Positions 12,366 through 64,000 of a DNA stretch of 64,000 nucleotides are shown here, piece by piece. Below the pieces are notes generated by a model. That model was given only the letters and a program-made list of their open reading frames with translations, searched no databases and had not been told where the DNA came from. Within the stretch, counting starts at the first letter, position 1. Every line of letters begins with the position of its first letter. The stretch lies in the NCBI GenBank assembly GCA_965287045.1, contig OZ336887.1:34472001-34536000 (forward strand), in the 5' to 3' direction. Both the position numbers and the translations under genes were made by a program. The DNA is from Carcharhinus amblyrhynchos (lineage: Eukaryota).

Positions 12366-12394
12366 CTGTAGCAGTTCAAAGTGGCAGCTCACCA

Positions 12395-30400: not shown

Positions 30401-33400
30401 AATGCTTGCATTTTGATTTCAGAAACAACTGAAGAAACTGAGTGAAGACCTTGGAGGGATGGTGAACAATCCCCACCTGAGTGATGTGCAATTTCAGGTG
30501 GACAATGGCGAGATTGTGTATGCTCACCAGTTTGTTCTCTACGCTCGCTCTCCACAGCTTGTGCAAATTGTAAGTGATAGGAATGCTTTCTGTAAAGGGG
30601 GTGTAAAAATTATTTTTTCAGACCTTTCCCTTTTCAGTCTTCTCTCCCTTCTGGTTAAGAGTCACACAAGAAGCTGTTGTCTCCTTAGAAGCATGCCTTA
30701 CATGAGACTCTTCCATCAGTTGGTACTCCTGATGTATAACATTGTTACATTAACATTGGCGAGAGATTGCAGAATAATAAAGCTGCTTTGTTTGCAACTG
30801 GGGAATGTGTATCAAACCTGGCTCTACAATTTAACCATCTCCAATGATGTGCATAATGTTTTGTTCTACCTTGTGCTGCCACGTACTTTTTTAGACATAA
30901 GCTTGTACTAATTTGAATCATTCAGAATGGAATTACTTAACCCGAGTTAAATCCAGTGAGTGATCAGTTAAATCTGACTGCCTTTAAATAGTAAGTGAGT
31001 TATGTGGCTCTCCTGAAGGATTAACCCATGGCAGCTTACCACAATTCTTCACCCATTCTCTTTTGCCAACTCTTCTGCCACCATATCACCCATTTACTTG
31101 TGGCTGACATGGTGGCACAGTGGTTAGCACTGCTACCCACAATGCCAGGGACCCGGGTTCGATTCCCAGCTGGTTCACTGTCCACGTGGAGTTTGCATGT
31201 TCTCCCCCTTTCTGCATGGGTTTCCTCTGGGTGCTCCGGTTTCCTCCCACAGTCGGAAAGACGTGCTGGTTAGATGCATTGGCCATGCTAAATTTTCCGT
31301 CAGTGTACCCGAACAGGTGCCAGAGTCTGGCGATTAGGGGAATTTCACAGTAACTTCATTGCAGTGTTAATGTAAGCCTTACTTGTGACCAATAAATGAA
31401 CTTTACTTTAAACCTTGAGTTTGTTGACTTATTTGTTTTGTAGGTGCACGATGAAGGATTCTTGGTGGAAGAGGATGGTGCTGCTGTGATCCGCAGACTC
31501 TTAATGCCTGAAGTAACGATAGAGGCTGTCTGTACATTCCTTCGATATCTGTATACTGCTAGTATTGCGGTATCTCCTACTGTACTTCCAGAGGTGCATG
31601 CTCTTGCTAAGAGGTCAGTATAGTTATACCATACTAAGATCAGTTGACTATCGAATTGGTGCCATTAATCTGTAGTACATCACTGATTCACTTTTTAGAA
31701 ATTTGATTCTGAAGCATGAAATAAAATAACCGACTTAAAAGATAGAAAGGAGCTTGCCAAAGGAATTTTTTTTGTCTTGAATAGATTTCTGACATCTGCA
31801 GAATATGATCTTAAGATATCTTATTGCCTGCTGACTTACCTTTTCAGATTGACAATGATTCTGTGTTGATCAGGTTTACTATGAACGAGTTGATACAGAT
31901 TTGCGAGGCCTGGCCAGATGAAGCTGAGCCCGATGGAAGTAGTTCGGAAAATGATCCTTTCACTATCACAGAAGACAATAACTATGGAAACAGAGAAGAC
32001 AACCTCCAGGACCTTTTGAGATCTATGTGGGCAGGTGAATCAGAAGATCCTGCCTTGGATATCAAATCTGCAGATTACGAGGATGAAGAAAAGGTCAGTG
32101 AGAAAGTTGATGATGAGGAATTAGAAGAACTTTATGAGTTTGCTGCAACTCAGCGAAAAATCATGAGAACCTCCCTTAAGGCTCAAGAAAGTGAGAGACC
32201 TGATCAGAACAGTGTGGAAACTGGAGAGGAAACTGAGGTGCATGAAGAAAATGAGCAAAGTGTGGAGGGACTAAGAACTGAAAGTGAAACTGTAGGAAAT
32301 TGTGAGTCCTCCATGACTGAAGGAGAAAGCGGACCTGACTCTCGATGTTTTTTGAAGACACTGGAAGGATCCAAGATGCAAGAACCCTCTCAGAAAGTCA
32401 AAGCATTTCAACTGGAGGGATTATATAAGCAGAGCTCCAGACCTGATTTAAATACCAGCAATGACTGCCTTTTTTCAGAAACTGATCTATCGGTAGAATC
32501 TGAGCAGGATATGGAACTTGGAGAAAAGTATGATTTTGATGCCTCTGAAGGAGACAAGGCTTTGCCTACAACAGGCAATCATTTGTTTATCTCCTCTGCC
32601 AACTGCAGCATTAACCGCATTTCACCCATCTGTGAGATTGAAAGTCCGTCTGCTTGCCCAAGTTTACCCGATCTGCCTCTGGTTGGCCTGTCACCATTGG
32701 AAACTTGTACAAATGTGAAATCTCCACAAGAACGTCCACCTTTGACCTCGGCCGTAACCCCATCCCTTGGGGCTGTGCACCATGTGAATCCAACTGAAGC
32801 CTTGTCTTGTGACTCACTGGTTTCAACTGGGCAACAAAATTTGGCAAGTGAAAAGTGTGATAATTCTAGCATTCTTCAGGAACTAAATGCTCACAAATCT
32901 CCAAAATATTTTGGAGATTGTCCATCAAAGGCAAAATCCCTTTCAACAAGTGCTCTTTGCTTGAAGATGCCATTGCCATCCCAAAATACCTGTGAGGTAC
33001 ACCACTGCAATCTGTCACCACCTATTAGCATTGACTCCAGTCAGTCTCCATCAAAGAATAAATCCCTGCTGGTCATAGACTCCGATGAGGAAATGGAAAT
33101 AACTGAAAACAAAATGTCAGCACCTTGTTCTGAAAACGTACAGTTAATGTCATTGTACAATATTAAACGGTCTAATGATGAATTAGACCCACATTCATGT
33201 GGTAAACGATTTAGTACTACATGCAATAAGGTGTTGAGTTCTGAGATGCACACTGAACAGAGAAACTTCAGAGTTTCTGGAATTCCATCCAAGTGCCTGG
33301 ATGAGGTATATGACAAGAGCAGTTCAGTGTTATCCACATCTGGTGTTGCTAAACAAGTGGCTAACCACGAAAATCATGTTCAAGATAGTGAAAGTAAGCT

Positions 33401-36400
33401 GACTCTACAGCTTAGCAGTGACGGTGAACAGAGTAATGAAGACCATGCTGTGGAGGGGTCCTGGCTGATTCCAGCCACTCCACTTTCAACCAGAACTAGA
33501 CACTGTTCCACACTGGCTACAAATTCCCGCATTCTGCAGAATCAAAATATTGAAGAGAGCACGTTGTTTGAGAAGCCAATGGAACAGCAGATTACGGTGT
33601 TAAAATCTGATGGTGTGGAGCAGGAAAAAGCACAGGCAATTAACCCATTGAAGAATGGGTTCAGAGGTGCTAAAGAAATAAACCTAGTTAGAGAGTCAGA
33701 TTGTCCTGTAGAGAGGAATTCCATCAGTCAGTCATTGAGTGATTCACTGCCTTCATCCCTGATTCCTCCCACACAGACCTCAGACTGTAGTGTTGAATTA
33801 GAAAGTGAGGACGCTTCAGTCGCTCATTCTCCTTCAGTGAAGCTAACAGGAGCACTGTCAGTGTCACTCTCTTCTGAAGAGAAGGAGGCAACAGACAAGT
33901 CTGTGCTGGAGATCGAAGACACTGAGGAGGAGATGCCAACAGCTGAAGCTAGTTTTCAGTTTGAAGATGGGCCACCGATACCGTATGATGAGTGTTGGAT
34001 GTCTGAAGGTAGTCCTCAACTTGAAGAGGATTCTAATGGTGAGGATGCATTTCTTCAGAAGACAATCAATCAAATGAAGAATAAAGATGAACTAGATCAT
34101 ACCACAAATTCCGAGAACAAAAATAGCACACCTCTCTCAGAAAAATCAAAGCCCAGTGGGCCCTTTTCATCTATTCAAGAACATCAGGACAGCAAAGCTG
34201 ATGAAAAGAACCTTTCAAGAAGACAACGTCTCAGTTTTTTTGAATCCAATATCTGGGATGATTGGGATGAAGATGAGGAAGTTCCTGAATTCATCCCTGG
34301 ATTGTCTCAAAAGTTACCTGTGCTTCAGAAGGACACCACTAATTCCAGAAAACGTGTTGCTGAGCACAAGACTCCAGGTAAGCAATTACCATGGATTAAG
34401 GAAGATTTTTAGCCCCAGGCTTTTTGAAGATTTGCAGTCAGTCTTAAAACTGGAGATGTGATATATGTGTGTTTTGAAGTTTAACCGTATAAACAACAAA
34501 GCTTTGAACATTTTTCAGACAATATTGCTTTAAGCATTTTGATTAAGTTTACATATCTCTGACAAATCCTGTCGAGATCTCTAAACCAAAATAACCAAAT
34601 TTATTGAATGACATCCCCCCCCCCCCCCCCAATCAAGAAATTACCAAAAAGATTCCAATTTTTGTAATTTTTACTTTGATATGAATCAGAACCAGTGAAA
34701 ACCGCACATGAATTACCAGGCAATAATACTTCAAATATAAAGGTAAATCTCACTTTAAATAGTGAATGCAACAAAGAGGCATCTTACCTCATTCACACCA
34801 ATGTCCCCACACGTAAATGCAGCACTCCATAGCTACTCAGCTCTGCAATATCCAGTTCTTTATTCATGCAAGGTAGGTCAGGAGTCTTAGAACAATTTGT
34901 TGATAACTTTCACCTTCAAGTTTCACAGATATGATTATCATCAACAAGGCACACTTCTACACATCTTCACTCCATCTGGTCACAACAGTCCAAGCTATTC
35001 ACATGGATTTCTAGTTTTAGACCTTTTTAGCCAGCTCGCATGTCCAAAAACTCTTATCATTTTTTTCTACCAAACAGACTTATTCTTGAGGTTTGCCTCC
35101 TTTTCCTGCAAGGAGCCCGTGTTCTTTCTGTCTCTATCTTCTTTCTCTTGGTAGCTGCGTCAGTGTGCTGATCGCTTTCACCCTCCAGCTCCTCTGTATG
35201 TAGCTCTCCACCAACCACATGGCTTATTTCTTCCTTCCTGTTGCTACTGCTTCTAGGCCAAGGGTAGACAGATCACATGGACTACTATTTCTTATCCAAT
35301 GAAGTTTATTCCTTTATAATTGATGCAAACTTTTTTCAAACTTTCGTAAAAGCAGTTTGATTCTACAGATCTTGAAGGAAATTGCAAATTTTCCTTACTG
35401 TACTGCTTCTGGGTCAAAGGTCATCACAATACCAGATATATAAATGTCTTTGGTCTCAATATGTGTAGTGGCTCAGAGTGATTTTCTTCCCCCATTATCT
35501 GTTTGTGCGAATTATGCTAAACCTTGAATGGTATAATTTTTACTTTTTACAGCCAACATGAAACCTGGCTGTATACAATATAAACTGCAAACACAGGGAA
35601 AACTGAAAGTTAAACTGTAGATGTGAAGCCAGGGCTATGGAGTAAATAAAGTTTTTGTAATTTTAAAGCCAGTGCACGTCACAGCAATGTTGATTGAATG
35701 TAGCAGTATTCTTTCATTCAGTTTTGTGGCCTTTTTAGGCTTATTTTCATCCACTGTATGATTTTGTATCTTCCTTCAGCACCTGTCAACCGAAGGAAGG
35801 CTCAATATCCATTGGCTCCCATCACCCCAGAACCTCCTTACTCAACAATGGCCACCCCACACCTAAAGAAGGAACTGGGCAAGTAAGATGATGGTTGCGG
35901 TTGAGTTTTTAATGAAGGCAGAGATTTCCTTCATTTTTTTGAATAAAGGAATAAATTCACTAATAAACGGGAACTTTACAGGCTGGAGAACAACAATGTG
36001 GCATCTTTACCCAGAAAGTGGTGAGAATGTGGAACTCCTAACACAGGGAGTAGTTGAGGCGAGTGCCAGAGATACCTTTTATAGAGGAGCTAGATCAGCA
36101 GATAGGAGAAAGGAACTGAGCACTGGCTGATAGAGTTAGATGAAAATACAAGATTCTTACAGGGATTGACAGGATAAATGTGGGAAGGAAGTCTATAACC
36201 AGCGTGCACAGTCTCAGGTTCCATTTAGGGCTGAGATGAAGAGGAATTTCTTCACTCAGAGGGTGGTGAATATCTGAAGTTTTCTAGCTCAGAGGGCTTT
36301 GAAGGCTCAGACATTGAGTATGTTCAAGACAAAGATCAATAGATTTCTAGTTATTTAAGTTATCAAGAGATATGGGGACAGTTTGAAAAAATAGTGATGA

Positions 36401-39400
36401 GATGGAAGATCAACCATAATTTAGTTAGAGAGTAGACTAGAGGGGCCGAATAGCCTACTCCTATTTCCTGTGTAGGAGGGTGACATCTGAAATGGAGCAT
36501 AAACATCAGCATAGATTTGGTTGGGCCAAACAGCTTCTTTATTTGGTATAGATACTACATAAGCATCAGAGTTTCATTTTTGGCAAAGATATCTTCCCCT
36601 TACTGAAGGTACCACTTCACTAAAATTGGGACATTAAAGCCATGACTTCTAAATCAGAATTCATCACTGGGGCATTGTTCTAATGGTGCCATTCTTCCAT
36701 TAGTATTTATGTGGTTCTGGTTGATTTCTTGTATATTATTTAGAGGCTACACTTGTGGAGTTAGTGAATGGGGCTACGGTATAGCGTGTGCTCAGTATTA
36801 TAATCTGAAAATGTTTGTGTCTGGACTAGTTTTCTTTTGTTCCAGGTTTGGTGTTCGACCTCTGCCAAAGAAGAAAATGATTCTGAAATTGAAAGAGATT
36901 TATCAATATACTCATCGGGTTATTCAGCCTAATCCTGACTCCCAGTCCAAGCCAGAAGTATCATCTTCACAGCCTTGCACCTGGAAAACGAGCAAACCAA
37001 AGGCGGCCACCATAAACCAATCCCAGCCTGCTTCATTGGAGACAGGCTGGCTAAAACTCCATTCCAAAAAACAATCAAAGTCTGTTTCGGCAGAATCCAG
37101 GAAAACAGCCTCGACAGGTCATTTGAAGGCCACTTCTAAAAGAAAAGGGAGAAACTGTGCTCTGGAGTCTCACGGGCCCGAAGCCAAGTCACCATTGAAA
37201 GCTGTTGCTTCTGATGCAGCCAACCAACTCTCCTCATCTCAAAGCTCCTCTTCAGCGGGGAGTGAGAGCTCCTTTGAATCACAAAGGTGGGTGTCTTAAA
37301 TCTGAATACAGTGAAAGGAATAGTGACTGATTGAAATGAAAATCTTAACTACCTCAAATCAATTCAATCAAAGTGATAAAGAGTAAAGAAATTGGTGAGT
37401 TAAATTAACTGCCATCTTTGGGTTAGCTCAAAAAGGTTGATTTGCACAGTGTCTGACATATCATAGTCAGAGACAAACCAATCCTTATACATTACTAAAT
37501 AATGTTAGACCTTTTTTACTGAATGCTTGTACCCCTAGAAATAGGTTACCTGAAACACACATCCTCCCCCTCTAAGGGCACAAATTCAGACTGTTTTGTA
37601 TTGTGCAAAATTTGATTTATTATTGTCACATGTATTAGTATACAGTGAAAAGTATTTTTCTTGAGCGCTATACAAAGCATATCGTACATAAGGAAGAAAA
37701 GGATAGAGTACAGAATGTAATATTACAGTCATAGCTAGGGTATAGAGAAAGATCAACTTAATACAAAGTTTAAGTCCATGCAAAATTCTGACGGCAGCAC
37801 GGAAGAAGCTGTTCTTGAGTTGGTTGGAATGTCTCCTCATATTTTTGTATCTTTTTCCCTGATGGAAAAAGATAGTATATCCAGGGTATGCGGGGTCCTG
37901 GATTATGCTGGCTGCTTTGCTGAGGCAGCAGCAAGTGTAGACAGAATCAATGGGTGGGAGGCTGGTTATTGAGATGGACTGGGCTTTGTTCACAACCCTT
38001 TGTAGTCCTTTTGCAGTCTTGGACAGAGCAGGAGCCATACCAAGCTGTGACACAACCAGAAACATAAGAACATAAGAAATAGGAGCAGGAGTAGGCCATC
38101 TAGCCCTTCGAGCCTGCACCGCCATTCAATAAGATCATGGCTGATCTGAAGCGGCTCAGTTCCACTTTCCCGCTTTCTCCCCATAACCCTTAATCCCCTT
38201 GCCTACCAAAAACCTATCTACCCGCGTCTTAAATATATTTAGCGAGGTTGCCTCCACCACTTCAATGGGCAGAGAATTCCAGAGATTCACCACCCTTTGA
38301 GTGAAGAAGTTCCTCCTCAACTCTGTTCTAAACTGCCCCCCCCCCCCCCCATCTTGAGGCTGTGCCCTCTAGTCCTGCTGTCCTTTCTGAGCGGGAAGAA
38401 CCTCTCCACCTCTACCCTATCCATCCCTTTCATCATCTTATACGTCTCAATAAGATCCCCCCCTCATCCTTCTAAACTCTAACGAGTACAAGCCCAGTCT
38501 ATTCAGCCTCTCCTCATAGCTCAACCCCCTCAACTCCAGTATCAGCCTAATGAACCTCCTCTGCACTCCCTCCAAGGCCAAAATATCCTTGCGCAAGTGC
38601 GGTGACCAAAACGGCACACAGTACTCCAGCTGCGGCCTCACCAGTGCCCTGTACAGTTGCAGCAAGACCTCCCTACTTTTATATTCAATCCCCCTCGTTA
38701 TGAAGGCCAGCATCCCATTTGCCTTCCTGACCACCTGCTGCACCTGTAGGCTGGGTTTTTGCGACTCATGCACAAGGACCCCCAGGTCCCTCTGCACCAT
38801 CGCATGCTGCAGCTTTTCGCCCTGTAAGTAGTAGTCCTTCCTACTATTATTCCTGCCAAAGTGGATAACCTCACACTTGCCAACATTGTATTCCATCTGC
38901 CAGGTCCTCGCCCACTCACTCAGCCTATCTAGATCCCTCTGCAGACTTTCTACACCCTCCGCACAATTTGCTGTTCCACTGATCTTTGTGTCATCAGCAA
39001 ATTTCGACACCTTACACTCGGCTCCCTCCTCCAGATCATCTATATAAATGGTAAATAGCTGAGGCCCCAGCACCGATCCCTGGGGCACTCCACTAGTCAC
39101 CAACCACCAATCCGAATAGCACCCATTGACACCCACTCTCTGCCTCCTATTTGACAGCCAATCCCCTATCCACGCTAACACCTTACCCCCAACTCCATAC
39201 CCCCTAACCTTCTGTAACAACCTTTTGTGCGGCACCTTATCAAACGCCTTCTGAAAATCGAGAAACACCACATCCACCGGTTCCCCTCTATCCACCGCAC
39301 TAGACACATCCTCATAGAATTCCAATAAATTTGTCAGACACGACTTCCCCTTAGTGCTGCGTCTGTTCTATTAAACAATTCTCCTCAAGATGCCTCGCTA

Positions 39401-41879
39401 TTTCCTCTTTGATTACAGATTCAAGCATTTTTCCTACAACAGATGTTAAACTAACCAGCCTATAATTCCCTGCCTTTTGCCTGCTACCCTTTTTAAACAG
39501 CGGCGTAACATTAGCCGTTTTCCAATCTTCCGGCACTTCCCCGGAATCCAGCGAGGTTTGGAAAATAATCACCAAGGCATCTACTATCACCTCTGCCATT
39601 TCCTTCAGAACCCTTGGATGCATTCCATCCGGTCCTGGGGACTTGTCCACCATCAGTCCCTCTAGTCTGTCGAGCACTGCCTCTCTAGTAACAATGATCT
39701 CATTCAGGCCCTCCACTCCTACCATCTTTCCATCGTTAACACCCGGCAAACTATTCGCGTCCTCCTCCGTGAAGACCGAAGCAAAAAAGTTATTCAAGGC
39801 CTCAGCCATTTCCTCATCCCCCACCACTAAATCCCTCCTCTCATCCTCTAAGGGTCCAACATTCACCCTAGCCAGCCTCCTTTTTATATATTTATAAAAA
39901 CTCTTACTATCCTTTTTTATATTTAGCGCTAGCCTAGATTCATAGTCTATCCTTCCTTTCTTTATCAACTTCTTCGTCATTCTTTGATATTTAAACCTCT
40001 CCCAATCCTCTTCTCACCCACTACTTTTAGCCACTCTGAACGCATCAGCTTTTAATTTAATACTCTCCTTTATCTCCTTTGTTATCCACGGCTGATTATC
40101 TCTTCTCCTACGATCCTGCTTTACCATCGGAATAAATTTCTGCTGAGCACCAAGAAAGATCTTAAAGATCCTCCACTGTTCCTCAGCAGACCTACCGACC
40201 AATCCGTGCCCCCAATCTACATTCGCCAATTCCTCTCTCATCCTATTGTACTCCCCTCTGTTCAAACAAAGGACACAGGTCCGGGATCCTACTTTCTCCT
40301 CCTCCATCTGCATCAGAAACTCCACCATACAATGATCACTCTTCCCAAGAGGATCCCTCACAACAAGGTCCCTAATTCTACCTGCCTCATTACGTAACAC
40401 CAGATCTAAGGTAGCTCGCCCCCTCGTCGGCTCCAACACACACTGTTCAAGGAAACTATCCTGGCAGCATTCCAAGAACTCTTCCTCAAGCCCACCGTGT
40501 CCAACATGGGTCGACCAATCAATATGTAGATTGAAATCCCCCATAATTATCGCCGTTCCATTCCTGTATATGGTGCATCTTTAAAAGTTGGTGAGAGTCT
40601 TGGCAGACATGCCAAATTTCCTTAGTCTTTTGAGAAAGTAGAGGCATTATTGGGCTTTCTTGACTATAGCATTGGTGGGAGGGACCAAGACAGTTTGGGG
40701 ATCTAGACACCTAGAAACTTGAAGCTGAACTTAGAAGTGAGTTGAGCTACTTCAGGTTTAGCTACTTTGTAGAGTTCAGGAGATGAGAGGCAGATTTCAA
40801 TAACCTTCCTAATCTGACACCTGAAAATGGGGCACCTCCACTGTCCCTCTCATCCTTTGAAATAACCAAAGGGTAGATTTAGGTGACTAAGAGGAAAGGT
40901 CATGACCAATGATAACTATATCACAAAGGAACATTGCCTTTGTGATTCTTCCCATTGATTACCAGCCCAAAGATGTGCGGGTTAGGTGGATTGCCCCTTA
41001 GTGTCAGTAGGGTAAATATAAGGAGTTTCGGGGTAGGACCTGGATGGGATTGTTGTCACTGCAGGCTCGATGGACTGAATGGCCTCTTTCTGTACTTTAG
41101 GGTTTCTATAATCTTATGACTTTTGCTAATCTGAGGAAAATTTGTGTCTCTGAAGATCTAAAGGTCCACAAGAATACCTGCCCTAACTGTCTCTCTGAAC
41201 ATCATAACTGCCTCTCTGAACATCATAACTGCAACTTTAAAACAAGACATGATAAATTTGCTTTCAAAATGTGGAAATCCTGCCCTTGGTTGAATTTGCC
41301 ATCATTACCAAAACTGCTTAACATCAACAAACCACATGTTGTTACTTTCCCTTGAATTCATATCAGTCAACACTGGCTCTAGGAATTCACTGCAGATCAG
41401 TGTCAATGAGTTTATCATGAGAAAGCTACCAACCTTCCTTACCAGCGCCACTTTAAATAAAAATATGATGAAGGTCTCTTTATATGGGTTGTCTGAAGAA
41501 ACATGTTCATCCTTCTCGCTCTTTCAGGATGTTCGCCGATGAGTTTGACAATGTCTTTAGCACAGATTCGGATGAAGAGGGCGATGGAATCACTCCATCA
41601 CAGGCAGTACTCCGCGAAGCAGATACAGCAGAGGCCATACGACAGTATATTCGGTCAAACCCATCTCTATACAGTAACATCTTGCAATACAAGCCTTTTG
41701 AACTGTCAGATTTCAACCAGCAGCTTAAGGAAAATGGGATAATGGTTTCCAAAGGGAAATTGCTGGATTTTCTCAATGCTCACTGTATTACCTTTTCCAC
41801 AGCTAGACAGAGGAAGGAGATCTTAAAGCGGAGAAAGCAGGGCAAGGGGAAACCCAGTCAGAGCCACAGGAAGAAGTAA
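18403..41879 (+). CDS. SLX4: Structure-specific endonuclease scaffold SLX4 (FANCP/BTBD12), about 1892 aa, 14 coding exons
   Basis: Exons: 18403-18775, 19493-19780, 20510-20681 (UBZ1 FFCVICQKDLSNMNSTRRTQHTNRC), 21245-21466 (UBZ2 CPICGKRF..HLKRC), 23074-23291 (DEDTMVAMALSASLLE), 27824-28146 (MLR, PPLLLVQD), 29329-29605, 30134-30222, 30423-30569 and 31444-31613 (BTB, MVNNPHLSDVQFQVD..YAHQFVLYAR), 31874-34377 (large exon with SIM-like LLVIDSDEE and WLIPATP), 35780-35882 and 36846-37286 (SAP, PITP..Y..LKKEL.KFGVRPLPK), 41528-41879 (SLX1-binding domain, LYSNILQYKPFEL..LLDFLNAHCITFST). The phases add up to 5679 nt with no internal stop seen. Confidence 0.96.
18890..19205 (-). repeat. Degenerate tandem units derived from a Deu-type SINE segment
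   Basis: Repeated CAGTGCTGAGGGAGTGCTGCACAGT..GGGG units. The same motif is dispersed at about 3545-3650, 4515-4580, 6825-6880 and 59440-59480, and underlies the 5670 minisatellite. Confidence 0.55.
23474..24169 (+). CDS. CR1 ORF1 C-terminal SGNH/esterase-like domain (5'-truncated)
   Basis: IVVGDG..VVCLPGAGVQDV..VIVHIGEKDV..FSGLLP..LNAWLKDWC..GFRFVDHW..DGVQLT matches the layout of CR1 ORF1 esterase domains. The ORF start given is not a true ATG. Confidence 0.8.
   Translation: MITFRAYSEKHVTVRKSKKKRSRGTRTAPEELPRNIKGGATAGVEKAREGDQNTSEEGKSAGCEIVVGDGRVKGIDRRFCGQKRESRMVVCLPGAGVQDVSERVEGILKGGGTKSDVIVHIGEKDVGTKCRGDIRRQFRELGARLKCRASRVAFSGLLPVPGASRARNNEILQLNAWLKDWCRAEGFRFVDHWEVFMKEGQIYKRDGVQLTGKGVNILAGRLAGVFRQCLN
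23490..27578 (+). mobile_element. CR1-clade LINE with partial ORF1 (esterase-like) and intact ORF2, in an SLX4 intron
   Basis: ORF1 remnant to 24169, ORF2 at 24157-27054, a 3' UTR and a (TTCTTTG)n tail ending at 27578. The 5' boundary is approximate. Confidence 0.92.
24157..27054 (+). CDS. CR1 ORF2: APE endonuclease plus reverse transcriptase (965-aa open frame; first ATG at 24271)
   Basis: APE motifs CFNARS, VTETWL, YYRPP, GDFN and SDHN. RT motifs KSPGPDGI, YRPVSLTS, DFSKAFDKVPH, GVPQGSVLGP and FADD. CR1-type C-terminus LVRPHLEYCVQFWSP. Confidence 0.93.
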   Translation: MFKLIWRGGGDVDGTGIGDRVSPEGRKKDRIVSECLRCMCFNARSVTGKTDELKAIMFERKLEVVAVTETWLKEGQDWQLNVPGYKCFRRDRGGSQRGGGVALLVKDCIIAVQREGGIEDIGIESLWVELRNRKGDVTMLGVYYRPPNSPRAVEEGISRDILDKCRKNRVVVVGDFNLPGVDWKVPRSEGADGEEFVQCVMEGSLEQYVDSPTREGAILDLVLGNEPGQVVDVEVGEQVANSDHNSVWFKILMDKDEACPKGRVLNWGRARYNRIRQDLKDTDWGKLLDGRSTLGMWESLKGKLKSLQERHVPVKRKDGKGRIREPWVTRDIEDLVRRKREAYIRSRHLRTEIALEEYRECRRELKRGIRKAKRGHEMALAGRIKENPKAFYSYVRNKRMVRGKIGPLRDRGGELCLEPGGMGEILNEYFASVFTQERGLMSGAVLEEFEDPLRDIVITREEVLGLLDSIKTDKSPGPDGIYPRLLREVRDEIAGPLTQIFVSSLDTGEVPEDWRIANVVPLFKKGQRDNPGNYRPVSLTSVIGKLMERILKDRMYEHLERCNLIRDTQHGFVTGRSCLTNLVEFFEEVTKTVDEGQAVDVVYMDFSKAFDKVPHGRLIEKVKAHGIQGQVCRWVENWLGRRRQRVVVEGSFSNWRPVTSGVPQGSVLGPLLFVVYINDLEEGVGGVISKFADDTKMVGLAGTEEQCLAMQQDIDRLVDWADRWQMEFNPEKCEVMHFGRNNVEGSYTIKGRTIRSIDTQRDLGVQVHKSLKVSVQVQNVMRKAYGMLAFIGRGIEYKSRSLMLQLYRTLVRPHLEYCVQFWSPYYRKDVEILERVQRRFTRMLPGMEGLSYEERLDELGLFSLERRRLRGDLIEVYKIMKGIDRVNGGKLFPLQEMDRTRGHGLRVRGARYKTNIRGQFFTQRVVGVWNALPSKVVEAGTLGLFKSHLDSHMSGLHIGGYSRPY
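28713..28998. mobile_element. Penelope-like element pLTR remnant forming a perfect inverted repeat, with target-site duplication
   Basis: Arms 28713-28833 and 28841-28961 are exact reverse complements. ACTTTTGATAAT occurs at 28701-28712 and again at 28999-29010. Confidence 0.8.
28867..28904 (+). ncRNA. Minimal (dimer-type) type I hammerhead ribozyme motif
   Basis: TTCAC-CTGACGA-AGGG.ACTAA.CCCC-GAA-AGCT-T^GTGAG: stem I TTCAC/GTGAG, conserved CUGANGA and GAAA cores, palindromic AGCT stem III. A mirror copy lies at 28770-28807 on the minus strand. Confidence 0.7.
31110..31411 (+). mobile_element. tRNA-derived V-SINE, well preserved
   Basis: A-box TGGCACAGTGG, B-box GGTTCGATTCC, V-domain, and the same tail as the 2966 copy. 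Confidence 0.85.
31874..34377 (+). CDS. SLX4: SLX4 large central exon (2504 nt, low-complexity region with SUMO-interacting motifs)
   Basis: Lies within ORF 31824-34412, with acceptor gatcag| at 31873 and donor CAG|GTAAG at 34377. Motifs include EELEELYEFAATQRK, LLVIDSDEE, WLIPATP and VLEIEDTEEE. Confidence 0.93.
37606..38060 (-). mobile_element. Rex1/Babar-like LINE 3' remnant (left part), interrupted by CR1
   Basis: Translation LQRVVNKAQSI..SLPPIDSVY..CLSKAASIIQDPAYPG..KNSFFRAAVRIL resembles the Rex1-type RT C-terminus. The 3' end reads ..catgtgacaataataaatcaaa on the minus strand. Confidence 0.7.
38061..40566 (-). mobile_element. 5'-truncated, frameshifted CR1 LINE (same TTCTTATG family), antisense in the last SLX4 intron
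   Basis: ORF fragments 40014-40544 (GDFN, SDHC), 39351-39980 and 38447-39325 (FADD). The tail repeat cataagaa lies at 38063-38078. Confidence 0.93.
40567..40730 (-). mobile_element. Rex1/Babar-like LINE remnant (right part)
   Basis: Minus-strand degenerate SFKFLGV..VKKAQ.CLYFLKRLRKFGMSAKTLTNF.RCTI is contiguous in protein logic with LSGCVTAWYG at about 38060. Confidence 0.65.
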
Positions 41880-42798
41880 GTGCAGCTACTGCAACTTAAA
41901 CCTTCCTCTTCTTTAGTAACAGAATTGCTATTCTAATATCCATGCGGTTTGGAAATAATCTTATTATGTGAGTGTGATTATATGCCCAGCTGAAAGCATT
42001 TACCACACTGTATTTTAATTCAGGAGCTTTGATGTATCTACTATGCAGCAAGGAAATGCGGTAGCTCCTGTAGAATTTTTCAGTAACTGTAGCCCTGCTT
42101 CAGGAGCATCATGAAAGCCAGCACTGTTGTAACAAGATTGTCATCATATCACAGGAAGGTGTGACGTTAGATAAAAATTGAATGACTTCCTTTCAGCCAA
42201 ACTCTAATCAACAGTTTGTACTTTTAAGGTTTAAATTATATTGAAAGAATAAATTGTAAAATAAGGAGACTTTCCTGTAGCGGTGACACTTTTTGGTTCA
42301 TACTACAAACTGGCAGTTACTTTATCAGTGTGGCGCTGGCTTCAATTCTGCTGGCTGGTCATCTTTCTGGCTCAGGTAGGAACATTGTGTGGAATTGTAA
42401 GCAACTTGATCTCAAATGAATTTGAGAAGAAATCAAACAATTTAATCAAACATATATTCTCTTGTATTTAGTTCCCTTTAAGTACTTCCAATCCAGGAAT
42501 ATTGGTCTAATTCAAAAGAACGTATGCTTGTATATAATTGGACAAGAAATTCCTAATTTGTATATGTATAATTGAAAAATAAACTAGAATAGGTTTTGTA
42601 TGCAGTATCAGTTAACACCGTCTTCCTCTTAAAAAAGGAAGATAAACAACCTCAGTGCTGAATCAGACATACTCTTCTCTAGAATGTTAATACGTTTTGT
42701 ATGTTGTGTGTGTAATTATTGGTAAATGCCAGTGTCATATCTCTGTGGTTAAGCGGACCAAGAGCTGCACTTAAATGTTACTGCTTTCTTTAAAAAAA

Positions 42799-42804
42799 AA
42801 TAAA
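42799..42804 (+). terminator. Candidate SLX4 polyadenylation signal
   Basis: AATAAA followed by a GT/T-rich downstream element (ttgttgtgattttttt). Alternative AATAAA sites lie near 42248 and 42578. Confidence 0.4.
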
Positions 42805-43135
42805 CACACTTTCAATTGTTGTGATTTTTTTTATCTGTCATGAAATCTATACCCCTGGAGTAGAAATAATTGCCATAAGGATAAAGCAGCCCCTTAAAAT
42901 TAATAAAGTATCCCTTCACAATCTATCATGAAAGTTGGTAGAGGGTAAGGTAACAGAGTTGCTGGATCTAAAGTCCAATGTGAAGGTTCTCTCATTTATT
43001 GAGGTAATTCACACACGTGACATCTGAAATAAAAAATGGTTTCCAATCTCAAGGCATAATGACATGACTGGATTTTGGTAATCTTAATTTTAACCATTTC
43101 AAAATGAGAACTTAACTATGAGATGAATAAATCCA

Positions 43136-43207
43136 GTGACCTAAGCCAGAACTCAAACCCGCAGCGCTAGCGCTGTGAGGCAGCAGTGCTAACCACCGTG
43201 CCACCCC
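43136..43207 (-). mobile_element. V-SINE tRNA-like head only
   Basis: Reverse complement reads GGGGTGGCACGGTGGTTAGCACTGCTGCCTCACAGCGC..GGGTTTGAGTTCTGGCTTAGGTCAC. Confidence 0.7.
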
Positions 43208-43724
43208 ATCACTGGAGGAATGAAGAACATTGAAGTGGATTATGTTTCTGTAACATTCACAGATGTTATTTGTGTAACAGTTAGCTTCTTGAGCTTTGAC
43301 AATGGAGGGGGCCATTGGCTGGCTGGGTACAGCTCATTCTTTCTGTCTTATTCCAATGATTCCATTGTTCAGATTAGAGCAAACAAGACTTGAACAAGAA
43401 CAAACTTTTATTTCATGAATAAAATAAGAAACAACTGATTTTCAGGTTAGATTAGAGTCTTTCCATTGCAGAATTTCCATTTATTAGGATGAAATAGCCT
43501 GCTCTTAGTGTTTTTTTTAGCTCTATCCTGCTGTGGAATACAAAAATCGTAAACAAGTGCTGTTGAACCTTGTGATCTAATGACACATTGGAATCAGTTC
43601 CCACTGTGGCTAACTCCATCTGTTACCACTTCACCATTCAGAAATTGACAGGTTATTGGCTCAGACTCCATGTTCTTCACTGGTTCTTGGCCTTTAGGCT
43701 AAGAAATGTCAGATCAAGCCCAAG

Positions 43725-43843
43725 ATGCTTACCTGGCAAGTAAGTAAACCATGGTCAACAGGTGGTTCACCCAGGCTAGGGTAGAGTCAACAATTGGGTT
43801 AGCCGATGAGGTTCAACTGAAGCATCGACTGATGCAATTTTTC
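43725..43843 (+). pseudogene. Diverged U1 snRNA-like sequence
   Basis: ATGCTTACCTGGCAAG..ACCATGGTCAACAGGTGGTTCACCCAGG..TCGACTGATGCAATTTTT compared with U1 ATACTTACCTGGCAGG..ACCATGATCACGAAGGTGGTTTTCCCAGG..TCGACTGCATAATTTGT. Confidence 0.7.
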
Positions 43844-43993
43844 AAAGCCACCTCAGCCTTTGGACCAGAATGAAATATCAGATCAAGTCCAAGATGAGGT
43901 GCAATGCCTCATCTTGGACCTTGCCCCTCTTGTGGGGACTATGAATTGGATTCAATTTGACTTGGCTTTTTGGATAGAATAAATGTTTTAAAA

Positions 43994-44170
43994 ACTGTTT
44001 CTTGGCCTTTTGGCTAAGATCAAGTATCAAACCAAGCATCACCTTATCCTGTCAGCTTGGATCTTGTTTGTCTCTCTTGTGGGGACCATAATTCAGTTGG
44101 ATTTTGAATTTCGTTTTTGGAGCAAGCAAGGAATGGATTGGGTTTGCCTGATCCGTTGAGCGTTGGCTTT
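43994..44170 (+). pseudogene. Diverged U2 snRNA-like sequence
   Basis: TTCTTGGCCTTTTGGCTAAGATCAAGT is one mismatch from the U2 5' sequence TTCTCGGCCTTTTGGCTAAGATCAAGT. Downstream GTCTCTCTTGTGGGGAC resembles stem IIb and TTTTTGGAGCA matches the Sm-site region. The branch-point recognition sequence GTAGTA is lost. Confidence 0.75.
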
Positions 44171-45811
44171 GTAAATTTAAGGATTGAATATAAAAAAAAT
44201 TAAAACTGCATCAGATTAATTTGCCAAATTTATCAAACCTAAACTTCCTTTTAAAAGAAATACTCAGACAATTCCCAATGGAAAAAAAAGCTTTAATAGT
44301 TTGTGACAGGGAAAATTTCTTCCTTTTGTTGCAGACTTAATAGAAAGGAATCATTAACATTCAGTGAGCAGAAGAGTTAAGACATTGCTTTAGGAAGGGA
44401 TTTGTTTGAGAAGCAGTGGCTTGGTAGTATTGTCATTATTAATGCAGAAACCCAGAGAAATGCTCTGGGGACTTGGGTTCAAATCCCACCATGACAGATG
44501 GTGATATTTGAATTGGATAAAAATCTTGAATTAAAAGTCTTAAATGACCATGAAACCATTGTTCATAGTTTTTTTTTAAAACAACAATCTCGTTCACTAA
44601 TGTCCTTTGGAGAAGGAAATCTGGTCTGGCCTACATATGACTCCAGTCCAAAAGCAATGTGGTTGATTCCTCAAGGATGAGCAATTGATGCTGGCTCACC
44701 TAGAGACACCCACATCCCATGAGCAAATTTTTAAAAAGTTCAAGAATATCACAGTTGGCAGTGCTTCCAATTTTGAAATCATGCTCCAAACACCAGATCA
44801 TTTATATCAGAAGAGCAGTGGTCCTGCTTGAGTTAGAGCTTTCCCTACAACACTAGCAGTGCAATCCCAAATCAGGCTGTCGTTGAAGCAATTTTTTCTC
44901 TGTATCTTACCAATCTCATAAGTATTGTTCAACTATCAACCAACATCTTACCCTGGTTTCTTGTGTTGAGTACCCCATTCCTATATGACAATTACTCCAT
45001 TACTTACCCACTCCTATAGGAGATGTCATTTTCATTTGACTTGCCAAGACACTAATGTATCTCCAGCTTTCGATATTGAGACAGATAAAATGATCCACAA
45101 TTGGTGACCATACCTTCACTTACCTTGGTCTTAAGTTCCACAATTCCTGGCAAAACCCCTCTATCTTCCTTTCTTTGTTTTAAGGCATTCCTTAAATAAA
45201 GTTTTTGATTATCTGTCTTAATGTGGCCTGGTGTCAGAATTGTTTTATAATGCTCCTGTGAAGCAGCTTGATATATATTACCATATTGAATACATTTTTA
45301 CATGAATTTTTTTGTTGCCATTAGATATTTTTATCTCGTGACTCATTAAATATTCCTGTACAGCACAGATATATTAAGGATTTGCTCCCTGTTTGATATA
45401 TTTTACTCAACCCAACATTTGTATCTGTATAAGGTATAGATGTGGCGCTCTAACTGGCTCAGTTGCTAAAGCTCACATGTAATTGGACACAATGAGTTGA
45501 AATGGCCTCTTTCTTTGCCGTGAGTTAAACGCTTCTTTTCTATGGACCCCTCAACCAGAAGACCTCACACTTGTGGGTTGGGCTGGAGGAGGCGGAACAA
45601 GAGGTAGAACCACCAAAATGGCAGGGCTGGTACAACAACTCCTGTTCCTCAAGATTTCAGTAATCTCAGCCAGGGGCTCAGGAGAGGCTTCACAATTGGT
45701 CCAGTGACTCACTGATCTGGATGGGTTTGTCAGCCACCTTCCTGCTTGGAAGGTGTGTGTGTGAGGATATTGGATAATGACAGTGCACACACTATTCCAG
45801 TAAACTTCACA

Positions 45812-46463
45812 GAATGCTGGCCTTCATAGCGAGGGGGATTGAATATAAAAGTAGGGAGGTCTTGCTGCAGCTGTATAGGGCATTGGTGAGGCCACAGCTG
45901 GAGTACTGTGTGCAGTTTTGGGCGCCGCACCTGCGCAAGGATATTTTGGCCCTGGAGGGAGTGCAGAGGAGGTTTACTAGGCTGATACCGGAGTTGAGGG
46001 GATTGAGCTATGAGGAGAGGCTGAATAAACTAGGCTTGTACTCGTTAGAGTTTAGAAGAATGAGGGGAGATCTCATTGAGACGTATAAGATGATGAATGG
46101 GATGGATAGGATAGAGGTGGAGAGACTCTTCCCGCTCAAAAAAGACAGTAGGACTAGGGGGCACAGCCTCAAGATAAAGGGGAGGCGGTTTAGAACGGAG
46201 TTGAGGAGGAACTTCTTCACTCAAAGGGTGGTGAATCTCTGGAATTCTCTGCCCGTTGAAGTGGTGGAGGCTGCCTCGCTAAATATTTTTAAGAAGCGGG
46301 TTGATGGGTTCTTGATAAGAGAGGGGATTAAGGGTTATGGGGAGAGGGCGGGAAAGTGGAACTGAGCCACAACAGATCAGCCATGATCTTATTGAATGGC
46401 GGGGCAGGCTCGAAGGGCTAGATGGCCTACTCCTGCTCCTATTTCTTATGTTCTTATGTTCTT
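45812..46463 (+). mobile_element. 3' fragment of CR1 LINE (same TTCTTATG family)
   Basis: ORF 45814-46365 (LVRPQLEYCVQFW..RNFFTQRVVNLWNSLP) followed by the 3' UTR and TTCTTATG tail. Confidence 0.92.
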
Positions 46464-49186
46464 AACTTAGAGTACAGTATCAGGCCATTCAGCCCAACTG
46501 ATCTATGCTAATTCTACACAAGCTTTCTACCACCCTACTACATCTCCTCAATCTTTCTATCTCTTTCTTCTTCTTATATGTATCTAGTGCCCCTCAATGA
46601 AATACTGGGGAAGTGTGTTAAACTCAAGTTTATTTGGGATTCTGTGTCACAGGCTGTACTCCAATAAATAAAGTAAGCAAATGGACCACCTATTATTGAC
46701 AGTGCCTGTCTTGATTAGGCTTACAATCATTCAGCAGTTTAATGTTTAACCTACATGGGAGGGAGAAATCAAGACATACAATTGTCTTGCAGTTTTGGGA
46801 ACAAAGGTCAGAACGATTGTCCCTTCCACTTTCTACTGTTCACTCATCATTGGCACCTAGCACCAAAAACATCTTTAATCCCTTCACACTAGCTCTTCAT
46901 TTTGGTTCTCCAATTAAGGTACAAGGCTCACGCAATGCAGGTAAACATATTTTCCACATGTAGATTCACTGAAAATCTACCATCAATCAGTGGCTAAGGG
47001 AAGTAAACCAGCCATAGTAATCAATAAAAACACTCCCATCCTGATTTTCATTTTACAACTTTAACCGGTGGATTTGTTGGTAAAATTCACACAACCTTTG
47101 GACATGAATGAAGATTGAGATTACAGGCCACATATCGTGCCTCAGTTGCTCAATCATTATTCACTGATCAGAAATGCAAGTGACCACATCTGGATTCCCA
47201 GTTAGCCCATACTAGTTCACAACTTGGACAACACTATATCAAACCAGTCAGAGGAGCTTGCAAATCATTTGCATTCTTCAAAATAATTATGTAGAAACAT
47301 AGTCCAACACACAGTCAAAATGTAAAATCAGAAAATATATTTCTCTTTTCATTGAAGGACTGGTACAGAAAGACTTTCTCATTTAAAAATCACAATAACA
47401 GTTTCTGTTCACTTATCAGAATTTTACTACATGACAAGTTTTAAACAAACGGGAGCAACATAAATTCCAGTTCCACTTCCCAAGATGTGATTAATGGTTT
47501 AACTCTGTCCGTGGCCTTTTCAAATTAGGACCTATTCTGCCCTCTTTTTGTTCTTCATAAATTGAGAACTGCAGCACAATGTAAGCAATGGCTGGCTGCA
47601 ACCACACTTTAGAAAACCTGTGAATCCTGATAACTTGATGAGTTGGTAGAACAGAGACTGGGGAAGGTGTCAGGTTCAAACTCTGGCCCCTGCTAAGGTA
47701 ACTGATGTTAGCTAGAGACTAGCAATTTTTAAAGAAGTTTATTTATTAGTGTCTCAAGTAGGCCCACATTAACACTGCAATGAAGTTACTGTGAAAATCC
47801 TCCAGCACCAATTGGCCTGTGAGCTCAAACAATGAGCAGAGCAGGGAAAGGGACTCCAGCGATACTGGATCAGGACACCTCCCTTACCTGTGGCTTTCCC
47901 ACTGGAATCAAATAGTCTGCTACCCTCTTGTGTCTAAAGATCACTTGGCCAAGCTACCAGAAGATAACTGGTACCAGTTGGGTTCCTGCCATCAAAAGAG
48001 AAAGGGAGAACTCGAAAGGGAAGCAAAAGGTAGCTGTAAGTGAAAGGAGCAGCCGCAAAATCTCCTTAGTTGCTGATCTTGGTTCAGACCCATTCAATGA
48101 TGTGTCATACAAAGACCAAAGAGGAGCACAATGCAATGTGTACATCAACATACCAGGCTGACAAGCAAACATACACTTCACAAGGAGTGAACAGTTCATT
48201 CATTTGGAAGCAGTATAGTTGTATTGGGTCAAATGATTAAGAGTGGTTGCTAGGGAGTTGGGAAGGCTCGGCAGCTCCTTGACTTAGACATTCACTCTTG
48301 GTGATTCTACTGTTGTTATGCCTACAACTTTATTTTGGGGAATGGGGAAAAACACCAGCTGACACTACAATCAAGGCACAGTTTTGTTTTAACTGCACAG
48401 CATTTATAGTCCATACCTCCCCTTGTGAGCAGTAAATCAGACATACAAACGCAGAATCCAAAGAAATGGGGCATGCAGGGCTCAATGGCCTATGGTTCCT
48501 CACATTGTGTTGCTGATTGTAGGTGCAGTGATGTGGTGTGCTAGTGACGGAGGAATCACTAAAAAGTAACTCTCAGCAATGCCAGCCAAGTCGGAACAGC
48601 AGTGGAGCTTGGAGGCACAGTTACCTGGTTTGAATATCCATCTGCCACATTAGTGAATATATGGATCCAAAGAAAAAGTGACAAAGGAACTAGCAGGACA
48701 ATGTAGCAGAAATAAATGTACCATTTTTAAAAAAATCAAAGCAGTAAACATACAGCACTTTTGCTGGGATACTGGAAAGCAGCAAGGAAAATGGGAGGAT
48801 AGTTCAAGGAGCTGGCACACACCTGATGGGCTGAATGCCCTGTTGTGTTGCATCACTCAATCTCACTCTGCTTTGCAGCTGGAAGAGTGCACAGGTAATG
48901 AGAGGGAGGGTATTTCAGACCATGTTCTCAAGGACACTGTTAAATTTAATCTTGTCCAACAATAACAACTATCCATTTTCAAAACTGACATCTAAAAGCC
49001 ACTGGAATAGAAATTAAGACTAGAACAGACTCAAGAGTGTTCTGCTATTCAGGAAGCTTTTGAGTGTGTTCAGTATTGGGACAAATGCAATCCCACTCAG
49101 TGTGAGAGTTCAATTGTTTTACAGTGCCTATATTTAACATCACCCAAGCAAGCATGAAAACATACCTCACTCTATTTAAACTCACT

Positions 49187-52392: not shown

Positions 52393-64000
<11,608 letters not shown>

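What the first reader, a model, noticed from the sequence alone, without database searches (positions are those of the whole stretch)
43679..44199. Composite U2-U1-U2-U2 spliceosomal-snRNA-derived element: a SINEU-like retroposon in a shark
Seen in the sequence: three tandem U2-like heads (43679, about 43846, 43994), with a near-full-length U1-like segment (43725-43843, keeping CTTACCTG and an Sm-like AATTTTT) fused after the first. Units 1 and 2 share a non-U2 insertion (GAAAT[G/A]TCAGATCAAG[C/T]CCAAGATG). Units 2 and 3 share non-U2 changes (CTCTTGTGGGGAC, which still pairs as stem IIb). The branch-point recognition sequence is replaced and the array ends in an A-rich run. Shared derived changes argue against independent processed pseudogenes and for an amplified family. 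Established knowledge: U1/U2-headed SINEs (SINEU) are described from crocodilians, and Keno (Tx1 clade) and Utopia LINEs target U2 sequences. Inference: this may be an independent snRNA-derived SINE family in cartilaginous fish that builds arrays by inserting into its own U2-like heads. I cannot verify whether it is already catalogued.
Basis: partly seen in the sequence, partly recalled or inferred. Interest (0 to 1): 0.85.

Follow-up and report, generated by a model that had tools for sequence, protein, structure and literature searches.

The report
Shark U2/U1 snRNA-derived composite retroposon
A 530-base patchwork of altered spliceosomal U2 and U1 RNA copies sits between two shark genes and looks like a mobile element so far described only from crocodiles, but whether it is spread through the shark genome is untested.

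Summary
The array is largely real. It lies between SLX4 and Miro/RHOT in a carcharhiniform shark. Unit 3 is a near-full-length, diverged U2 (Rfam 34.4 bits, E 1e-4, below the gathering score). Unit 1 is a U2 stem-I head. The U1 piece is supported only for nt 1-61 (sole Rfam hit, E 0.079), not near-full length. Unit 2 is homologous to units 1 and 3 (0 of 2000 shuffles), but its own U2 head is marginal. The 'non-U2 insertion' is mostly rearranged U2: the branch-point-recognition sequence is deleted. Units 2 and 3 share derived features yet are only 63% identical, while two short repeats in the array are 92% identical and unit 1 is a clean mosaic of the two. This favours retroposed copies of RNAs that diverged elsewhere, joined by template switching or re-insertion at one site, as in crocodilian SINEU. 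It is not an intact snRNA gene and does not use the Keno/Utopia site. The decisive feature, dispersal as a family, could not be tested: no shark genome, Repbase or Dfam was available, and there is no other copy in 64 kb. Ten literature searches found no shark snRNA-derived SINE.

The parts
43679..43704 (+). Unit 1 head: ACTG plus U2 stem I; 24/26 identical to the start of unit 3; candidate 5' copy of a 26-nt target-site duplication
   Evidence: (D3)
43703..43727 (+). Derived post-stem segment of unit-2 type (23/25 to 43872-43896): rearranged U2 without branch-point recognition, AGATCAAG, and part of the hairpin arm; its last 3 nt overlap the U1 start
   Evidence: (D4)
43725..43784 (+). U1-derived 5' part (model 1-61): 5'-splice-site-binding sequence and inner helix of stem-loop 1
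   Evidence: 12.9 bits, E 0.079, sole hit; fold
43785..43845 (+). Continuation of the U1-like piece, identity uncertain; contains a 14/19 partial repeat of 43754-43772 and ends in AATTTTT; no stem-loop 4
   Evidence: (D8)
43846..43977 (+). Unit 2: degenerate head (43846-43869, marginal), derived segment, perfect 13-bp hairpin 43887-43919, IIb-like stem, 27-nt spacer and Sm-like T run; stem-loops III and IV absent
43978..43994 (+). AATAAA, TGTTTT and an A5 run: probable remnant 3' tail of unit 2
   Evidence: sequence
43994..44185 (+). Unit 3: near-full-length diverged U2 with stem I, deletion of the branch-point-recognition sequence, IIb-like stem, lengthened Sm region, an 11-bp stem-loop-III helix (44132-44157) and the 5' arm of stem-loop IV
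44186..44208 (+). A-rich tail (A8 at 44192-44199, then TTAAAA) followed by CTG; ACTG at 44205-44208 or AAAACTG at 44202-44208 is the candidate 3' target-site duplication
   Evidence: weak: 28 of 698 A-runs are followed by CTG
41529..41879 (+). Context, not part of the element: last coding exon of SLX4; six AATAAA signals lie between 42248 and 43126, so the element is probably beyond the main 3' UTR
52393..53782 (-). Context, not part of the element: last exons of a Miro/RHOT gene, convergent with SLX4

Best explanation
A dead, retroposed composite of at least two U2-derived source RNAs plus a U1 5' fragment, working like crocodilian SINEU but of separate origin. INFERRED: a U2 derivative lost its branch-point-recognition sequence, lengthened its Sm region and kept or rebuilt several helices. 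It diverged elsewhere in the genome into at least two forms (unit-3 type, near full length; unit-2 type, internally shortened). A poly(A)-priming LINE machine, most plausibly Tx1 clade, copied these RNAs into this intergenic site. Two orders fit. In model A, unit 3 went in first (ACTG duplicated), and a [post-stem fragment + U1 + unit 2 + A tail] RNA later went in at the same nick, duplicating 26 nt of the unit-3 head. In model B, the U2-U1-U2 composite went in first, and unit 3 then entered its A tail (AAAACTG duplicated). In both, the U1 and head pieces were added by reverse-transcriptase template switching. Transcription of source copies would need an external Pol II promoter. SHOWN: the anatomy, homologies, mosaicism and absence of promoter-like motifs. 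NOT SHOWN: dispersal, partner LINE, order of events, expression.
For: Heads abut without spacers, which excludes a gene cluster; units 2 and 3 end in A runs. Shared derived features: no GTAGTA; unit 3 reads GATCAAGTATC where the Rfam consensus reads GAUCAAGUGUAGUAUC, i.e. a 5-nt deletion between repeated AGU; 27-nt IIb-to-T-run spacer in both units 2 and 3 against about 16 in the Rfam consensus. Units 2 and 3 are 78/123 identical (12/22, 16/28, 50/73), whereas two repeats are 24/26 and 23/25. Unit 1 follows unit 3 at 8 of 10 differing columns in the head (2 match neither) and unit 2 at 10 of 11 after it (Fisher p 0.006 and 0.008). The perfect 13-bp hairpin would stay fully Watson-Crick with p 0.35 at 4% decay per site but 0.018 at 15%. 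Unit 3 folds better on the sense strand (z -2.4) than on the antisense strand (z -1.1). ACTG recurs at 43679, 43994 and 44205. SINEU shows recurrent 5' addition of U1/U2 pieces, heads from other subfamilies, poly(A) tails and tandem copies sandwiching a TSD (PMC4494074). Tx1 repeats are reported in whale shark, which lacks full LINE1 (PMC8455134).
Against: No second copy was found: blastn and a profile built from the units find only the three units in 64 kb; 0 matches in two scans of prokaryotic genomes; no candidate in a protein word search. These nulls have little power (P of no copy in 64 kb is 0.84-0.99 for 1,000-8,000 copies) but leave the family claim without direct support. TSDs are weak: a 7-nt or longer match occurs with 2213 of 19790 random 56-mers, AAAACTG follows 1 of 58 A-runs, and CTG follows 28 of 698 A-runs. 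The likeness of heads 1 and 3 is mostly ancestral U2 sequence, so the 26-nt repeat need not be a TSD. A shared 3' tail of units 2 and 3 is not significant (1089 and 912 of 2000 shuffles). The tails are short. The hairpin test was chosen after seeing the hairpin; 2 of 79 background tiles reach z -3 and 8 of 79 reach z -2. The LINEs seen in the window look CR1-like, not Tx1 (clade assignment from my knowledge of esterase-bearing ORF1).
Confidence: 0.58

Rival explanations
1. A one-off pile-up of chimeric processed pseudogenes. A few variant U2-like genes with normal upstream snRNA promoters, and U1, were retrocopied and joined by template switching at this site; the copies never propagate themselves, so there is no SINE family.
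For: Template-switch chimeras, poly(A)-extended and 3'-truncated snRNA retrocopies, and triple chimeras are documented (PMC4476161 passages). Retained helices suit a structured source RNA. It explains mosaicism and pre-existing divergence equally well.
Against: In mammals template switching is largely restricted to U6/U6atac, and poly(A)-extended U2 copies were 0%. Four snRNA pieces at one site is a lot for independent rare events. A U2 without branch-point recognition is an odd gene to keep.
Confidence: 0.25
2. One old U2 retropseudogene duplicated and decayed in place at the DNA level, with a separate U1 retrocopy landing in it; single locus.
For: Tandem arrangement; shared derived characters follow trivially from local duplication; no other copy in the window.
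Against: Identity is uneven along the units (92% beside 55-68%) and unit 1 is a two-template mosaic. The 13-bp hairpin is intact although in-place decay to 63% identity implies at least 15% change per copy (p about 0.02). Each of units 2 and 3 has its own A run.
Confidence: 0.1
3. Non-autonomous passengers of a Keno- or Utopia-type LINE that insert at the U2 target inside their own heads.
For: Tandem U2-like heads; Utopia can insert in tandem and makes 20-bp TSDs in reptiles; a 26-nt head repeat flanks a 289-nt A-tailed insert.
Against: The target around U2 nt 38/39 is deleted. The 3' flank of the insert starts at U2 nt 1, not nt 39. The Utopia paper does not mention sharks (0 occurrences).
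Confidence: 0.04
4. Functional variant snRNA genes or a functional chimeric U2-U1 RNA transcribed from this locus.
For: Stem I, a IIb-like stem, an 11-bp stem-loop-III helix and the U1 splice-site-binding sequence are retained.
Against: All hits are far below gathering scores. There is no branch-point-recognition sequence, and no octamer, PSE-like or 3'-box match with recalled consensus motifs. No spacers exist for promoters. CpG is depleted in units 1 and 2.
Confidence: 0.03

Closest known systems
SINEU-1 and SINEU-2 of crocodilians (Kojima 2015, PMC4494074; main text read, figures and supplement not seen)
   Same: U1- and U2-derived pieces stacked head to tail by recurrent 5' addition; heads and bodies from different subfamilies; partial duplication inside the U1 piece; poly(A) end; oligo-T tracts and no internal promoter.
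   Different: Host is a shark, while the paper found no SINEU outside crocodilians. There is no SINEU-1-like non-snRNA 3' body; the order is U2-U1-U2-U2. Copy number, target preference and partner LINE are unknown here. Sequence comparison with SINEU consensuses was not possible.
SINEU-3 (same paper)
   Same: A U2 monomer that keeps the first ~32 nt, loses the region after it, keeps the middle, has an altered 3' end plus A tail; tandem copies sandwich a TSD.
   Different: SINEU-3 has a ~50-nt internal deletion; unit 3 has a 5-nt deletion plus diverged sequence and keeps a trace of stem-loop IV. SINEU-3 targets Mariner-N4_AMi; the flanks here match nothing else in the window.
snRNA processed pseudogenes and template-switch chimeras (Doucet et al. 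2015, PMC4476161; passages)
   Same: 3'-truncated U1, A-tailed snRNA copy, possible short TSDs, chimeric junctions.
   Different: Those are near-exact copies of the real snRNA, mostly single and mostly U6 in chimeras; here several units share rearrangements absent from the U2 consensus.
Keno (Tx1 clade) and Utopia U2-targeting LINEs (PMC4640811; passages)
   Same: Association with U2 5' sequences; tandem insertion occurs.
   Different: They are autonomous, encode RT and endonuclease, and are followed by U2 from nt 39; none of this holds here.
Known shark SINEs: SacSINE1, CmiSINEs (PMC5499810; passages); HE1 (recalled)
   Same: Short retroposons of cartilaginous fish.
   Different: tRNA-derived heads and L2/CR1-type tails; the paper has 0 mentions of snRNA.

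Membership tests
SINEU (snRNA-headed SINEs) | 5' head derived from U1 or U2 snRNA | tested here: met
   U2 E 1e-4; U2 stem I in unit 1; U1 nt 1-61 as sole hit, E 0.079 over 4227 families, about 1.6e-4 for U1 alone over the array
SINEU (snRNA-headed SINEs) | Recurrent 5' addition of U1/U2 pieces without spacers | tested here: met
   U2 head-U1-U2-U2 abutting; unit 1 mosaic. Met as anatomy at one locus only
SINEU (snRNA-headed SINEs) | Short element with 3' poly(A) tail | tested here: met
   Units of 148-315 nt; A8 at 44192-44199 and AATAAA plus A5 at 43978-43994; tails are short
SINEU (snRNA-headed SINEs) | Structural changes shared among independently inserted copies (separates a SINE from retrocopies) | tested here: inconclusive
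   Shared among the three adjacent units; independence of the insertions is inferred, not shown
SINEU (snRNA-headed SINEs) | Dispersed multicopy family (hundreds to thousands of copies) | not testable with these tools
   No shark genome available; 0 further copies in 64 kb, which is expected even for 8,000 copies
SINEU (snRNA-headed SINEs) | Target-site duplication or truncation from LINE-mediated insertion | tested here: inconclusive
   Candidates ACTG, AAAACTG and a 26-nt head repeat; chance levels about 0.02-0.11; no empty site to compare
SINEU (snRNA-headed SINEs) | Mobilisation by Tx1-Mar and preference for a Mariner-type target | not testable with these tools
   Flanks match nothing else in the window; Tx1 reported in whale shark
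SINEU-1/-2/-3 proper (Repbase families) | Crocodilian distribution and descent from the SINEU consensus sequences | tested here: not met
   Host is a shark; the consensus sequences themselves could not be compared
Keno / Utopia | 3' flank is U2 starting at nt 39 | tested here: not met
   Site deleted; each junction is followed by U1 nt 1 or a U2-like nt 1
Keno / Utopia | Encodes reverse transcriptase and endonuclease | tested here: not met
   Only three open frames of 55-57 codons overlap the array
Functional U2 or U1 snRNA gene | Rfam gathering score, branch-point-recognition sequence, U1 stem-loop 4 | tested here: not met
   34.4 < 46 bits; 12.9 < 69.5 bits; GTAGTA absent
Functional U2 or U1 snRNA gene | Upstream PSE and octamer, downstream 3' box | tested here: not met
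   No PSE-like or 3'-box match and one 7/8 reverse octamer, using recalled consensus motifs; shark-specific motifs unknown

The most novel reading that the evidence does not exclude
An undescribed, independently evolved family of snRNA-derived retroposons in ground sharks, with at least two subfamilies descended from a U2 RNA that dropped branch-point recognition while keeping its helices, and which re-inserts at the 5' edge of its own copies to build U2/U1 arrays. It would be a second origin of SINEU-type elements in vertebrates and the first with self-targeting. The weaker version (a dispersed family, without self-targeting) has probability near 0.55.
Probability: 0.2. Interest if true: 0.72.

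Novelty: new variant of a known kind. Interest (0 to 1): 0.5.

Why it matters
In the papers I could see, snRNA-headed SINEs are described from crocodilians only, and how they are transcribed without an internal Pol III promoter is left open in the original paper. A second, independent case in sharks would show that U1/U2-to-SINE conversion is repeatable, probably wherever Tx1-clade LINEs are active, and would give a second system in which to find source copies, promoters and the partner LINE. Loss of the branch-point-recognition region in both lineages would suggest that a U2 derivative must stop interfering with splicing before it can amplify (inference). If the locus is single-copy, it is only an unusually complex snRNA pseudogene.

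Tried and rejected
Rfam (8 of 8 searches): whole window at gathering score 0 hits; no U1 in 43715-43880; no U2 in unit 2 or in 44040-44158; the miRNA and snoRNA hits there have E 0.7-8 and were treated as chance. Extra copies: none by blastn, profile search (only the 3 training units below E 0.6 among 18 rows) or pattern. Prokaryotic genome scans for two derived motifs: 0 and 0, nearly uninformative. Translated-frame searches for copies in protein sets: no candidate; 1 hit among 1.84 billion representatives, a 1,996-aa unnamed protein with E 3.3e-10 but 0 individually passing stretches, left unexamined, so it counts neither way. Shared 3' tail of units 2 and 3: rejected as not significant. Inverted repeat 43829-43841 / 44202-44214 (12/13) as a terminal inverted repeat: 83 of 2000 shuffles reach it in a region picked after the fact; rejected. 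Exact 15-mer shared between the tail and four CR1-like LINE copies: E 0.17, lies inside the coding region, not at a LINE 3' end; treated as chance. U1 3' half resembling pieces of units 2 and 3: 153 and 150 of 2000 shuffles; not significant. snRNA promoter and 3' box: none. A literature search for the IIb motif listed 25 unrelated papers. Repeat tables of two shark genomes give only total SINE content; the catshark paper has 0 mentions of SINE, Tx1 or snRNA. Viral and metagenome contigs, Repbase, Dfam, shark genomes and RNA-seq stayed unchecked.
Full report
Setting. The window is shark DNA. The long exon at 31815-34412 matches SLX4 of Mustelus asterias at 89% identity, catsharks and Cetorhinus at 72-73%, other sharks at 56-67% and batoids at 37-41%; 16 of 17 hits are chondrichthyan. 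This points to a carcharhiniform shark. The last SLX4 exon carries the Pfam Slx4 domain and stops at 41879. A Miro/RHOT gene runs towards it on the minus strand and ends at 52393. The array lies 1.8 kb after the SLX4 stop, behind six AATAAA signals at 42248-43126, so it is probably intergenic.

U2 content. Rfam U2 matches 43994-44211 at 34.4 bits, E 1e-4, against a gathering score of 46. Rescaled to the whole window this is E about 3e-3 over all families. The gathering-threshold scan of the window finds nothing, so annotation pipelines would miss it. The score comes mostly from the head: 44040-44158 alone gives no U2 hit. Unit 1 has U2 model 7-26 at 13.1 bits, E 0.26, and the stem-I pattern occurs only at 43684 and 43999, with 0.01 expected. 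Unit 2 has no U2 hit among 11 weak matches. Its homology rests on the other units: 0 of 2000 shuffles reach the score for any pair. Its head is marginal (12/22; 61-70 of 1484 random sites do as well).

U1 content. With the slice cut at the U1 start, U1 is the only hit among 4227 families: model 1-61, 12.9 bits, E 0.079. The slice was chosen after the fact, but U1 was named in advance and lies beside a U2 hit; for U1 alone over the array E is about 1.6e-4, and the exact 10-mer of the U1 5' end occurs once in the window, here. The longer slice scores lower and does not reach the Sm site or stem-loop 4, and a slice with margins gave no U1 at all. From recall, the TCGACTG and AATTT near 43826-43841 match U1 just before and at the Sm site, but no call confirms that. 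'Near-full-length' is therefore overstated.

Derived features. The Rfam consensus reads GAUCAAGUGUAGUAUC; unit 3 reads GATCAAGTATC. I read this as a 5-nt deletion between two AGU triplets that removes branch-point recognition; GTAGTA is absent at up to one mismatch. Units 2 and 3 share the 13-mer at stem IIb and a 27-nt spacer before the Sm-like T run, against about 16 nt in the consensus. Whether the IIb sequence is derived or simply shark U2 is untested. Unit 2 has a perfect 13-bp hairpin, the second longest of 6 perfect hairpins of 10 bp or more in the window. Unit 3 keeps 8/8 pairs in stem I, 6/6 in IIb and 11/11 in a stem-loop-III helix, counting G-U.

Why the units probably diverged before arriving. 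Units 2 and 3 are 78/123 identical, yet 43679-43704 and 43994-44019 are 24/26, and 43703-43727 and 43872-43896 are 23/25. Unit 1 follows unit 3 at 8 of 10 differing columns of the head (2 match neither) and unit 2 at 10 of the 11 that follow (Fisher p 0.006 and 0.008). The 13-bp hairpin survives 4% decay with p 0.35 but 15% decay with p 0.018. Uniform decay of a local duplication fits this poorly. Caveats: heads 1 and 3 are close to real U2, so much of their likeness is ancestral; the numbers are small; the hairpin test is post hoc; and folding z-scores of -3.5 and -2.4 are matched by 2 and 8 of 79 background tiles at the -3 and -2 cut-offs.

Junctions. ACTG stands at the start of unit 1, at the start of unit 3 after an A run, and after the final A run. 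In model A, unit 3 inserted first with a 4-nt duplication, and a 289-nt A-tailed composite re-inserted at the same nick with a 26-nt duplication. In model B, unit 3 inserted last into the tail of unit 2 with AAAACTG duplicated. Each signal alone is weak: 28 of 698 A-runs are followed by CTG, AAAACTG follows 1 of 58 longer A-runs, and 2213 of 19790 random 56-mers give a match of 7 nt or more. The unit 1/U1 junction overlaps by ATG, as expected of a template switch (sequence). No PSE-like or 3'-box motif was found with recalled consensus patterns, and there is no room for promoters between units.

Dispersal, the decisive point, is untested. There is no other copy in the window, but that is the expected result for up to about 8,000 copies in a 3-4.5 Gb genome (size range recalled). 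Scans of prokaryotic genomes for two derived motifs gave 0 and 0. A translated frame gave no candidate in the word-indexed protein set and one unnamed 1,996-aa hit with no passing stretch among the representatives; it was not examined, so whether it holds related sequence stays open.

Comparison with known systems. Kojima 2015 (PMC4494074; parts 1-4 of 5 read, covering the main text; figures not held, supplement unavailable) describes SINEU-1 with recurrent 5' additions of U1/U2 pieces, SINEU-2 as U1 plus U2 with heads from other subfamilies, and SINEU-3 as a U2 monomer that keeps nt 1-32 and a middle block and is often tandem around a TSD. All have poly(A) tails, are probably moved by Tx1-Mar, and were found only in crocodilians. 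The shark array works like these but is not a member of those families. Keno and Utopia are followed by U2 from nt 39 (PMC4640811 passages); that site is deleted here. Mammalian snRNA retrocopies and chimeras (PMC4476161 passages) supply the main rival. Whale shark and Callorhinchus have Tx1 repeats, and whale shark has no full LINE1 (PMC8455134 passages).

Novelty. Ten full-text searches (listings seen) found no snRNA-derived SINE in a cartilaginous fish. Passages of a vertebrate TE review (PMC5381603), the hagfish SINE paper (PMC7245038) and the Callorhinchus SINE paper (PMC5499810) mention none. Supplement tables of the grey reef shark (PMC12498223) and whale shark give only totals, and the whale shark repeat library file could not be read. 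The library lacks most subscription journals and Repbase Reports, where such a family would most likely be recorded, so novelty is provisional.

Verdict. The best reading is a SINEU-like composite retroposon of independent origin (0.58). Rivals are a one-off chimeric pseudogene pile-up (0.25), local duplication (0.10), Keno/Utopia-type targeting (0.04) and a functional gene (0.03). New variant of a known kind; interest 0.5, rising to about 0.7 if a genome search shows a dispersed, self-targeting family.

Noticed in passing
window 28713-28961: Perfect 121-bp inverted repeat with a 7-nt loop. One arm holds CTGACGA...GAAA, the core of a minimal hammerhead ribozyme, and the sequence resembles the terminal repeat of shark Penelope-like elements (both recalled; Rfam gathering scan found nothing). 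It lies within the SLX4 region.
   Followed up: partly
window 23453-27054 (+): Near-intact LINE: ORF1 with a GDSL/OSK esterase-like domain and a 989-aa frame with endonuclease and RT; CR1-like by my knowledge. Related RT-bearing copies lie at 12217-14412, 38447-40580 and 60625-62163, and a 3' fragment at 45781-46470.
   Followed up: partly
window 30417-41879 (+) and 52393-60400 (-): SLX4 and a Miro/RHOT gene are convergent neighbours here; in human SLX4 has other neighbours (recalled).
   Followed up: partly
window 43135-43207 and 44410-44730: A fragment repeated elsewhere in the window, resembling the HE1 tRNA-SINE, and a second decayed shark SINE-like repeat (names recalled) flank the array at about 470 and 200 nt.
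   Followed up: no
window 43746-43770: The U1-like stem-loop 1 reads ACCATGGTCAACAGGTGGTT, resembling the variant U1 head printed for SINEU-2B/C in PMC4494074 in its TCAA..CAG loop; may be coincidence.
   Followed up: no
window 43793-43816: The second half of the 'U1' piece has short matches to unit 3 (14/16 at 44137) and unit 2 (11/12 at 43893); each alone is reached by about 150 of 2000 shuffles. It could be a patchwork of U2-family fragments and not U1.
   Followed up: partly
window 43829-43858 vs 44156-44214: Two neighbouring inverted matches (12/13 and 13/15) link the U1/unit-2 junction with the 3' end of the array; at chance level when tested.
   Followed up: yes
window 54580-54987, 5670-5890, 18894-19069: Minisatellites of 27 nt x 15 (99% matches), 33 nt x 6.7 (100%) and 33 nt x 5.2.
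   Followed up: no
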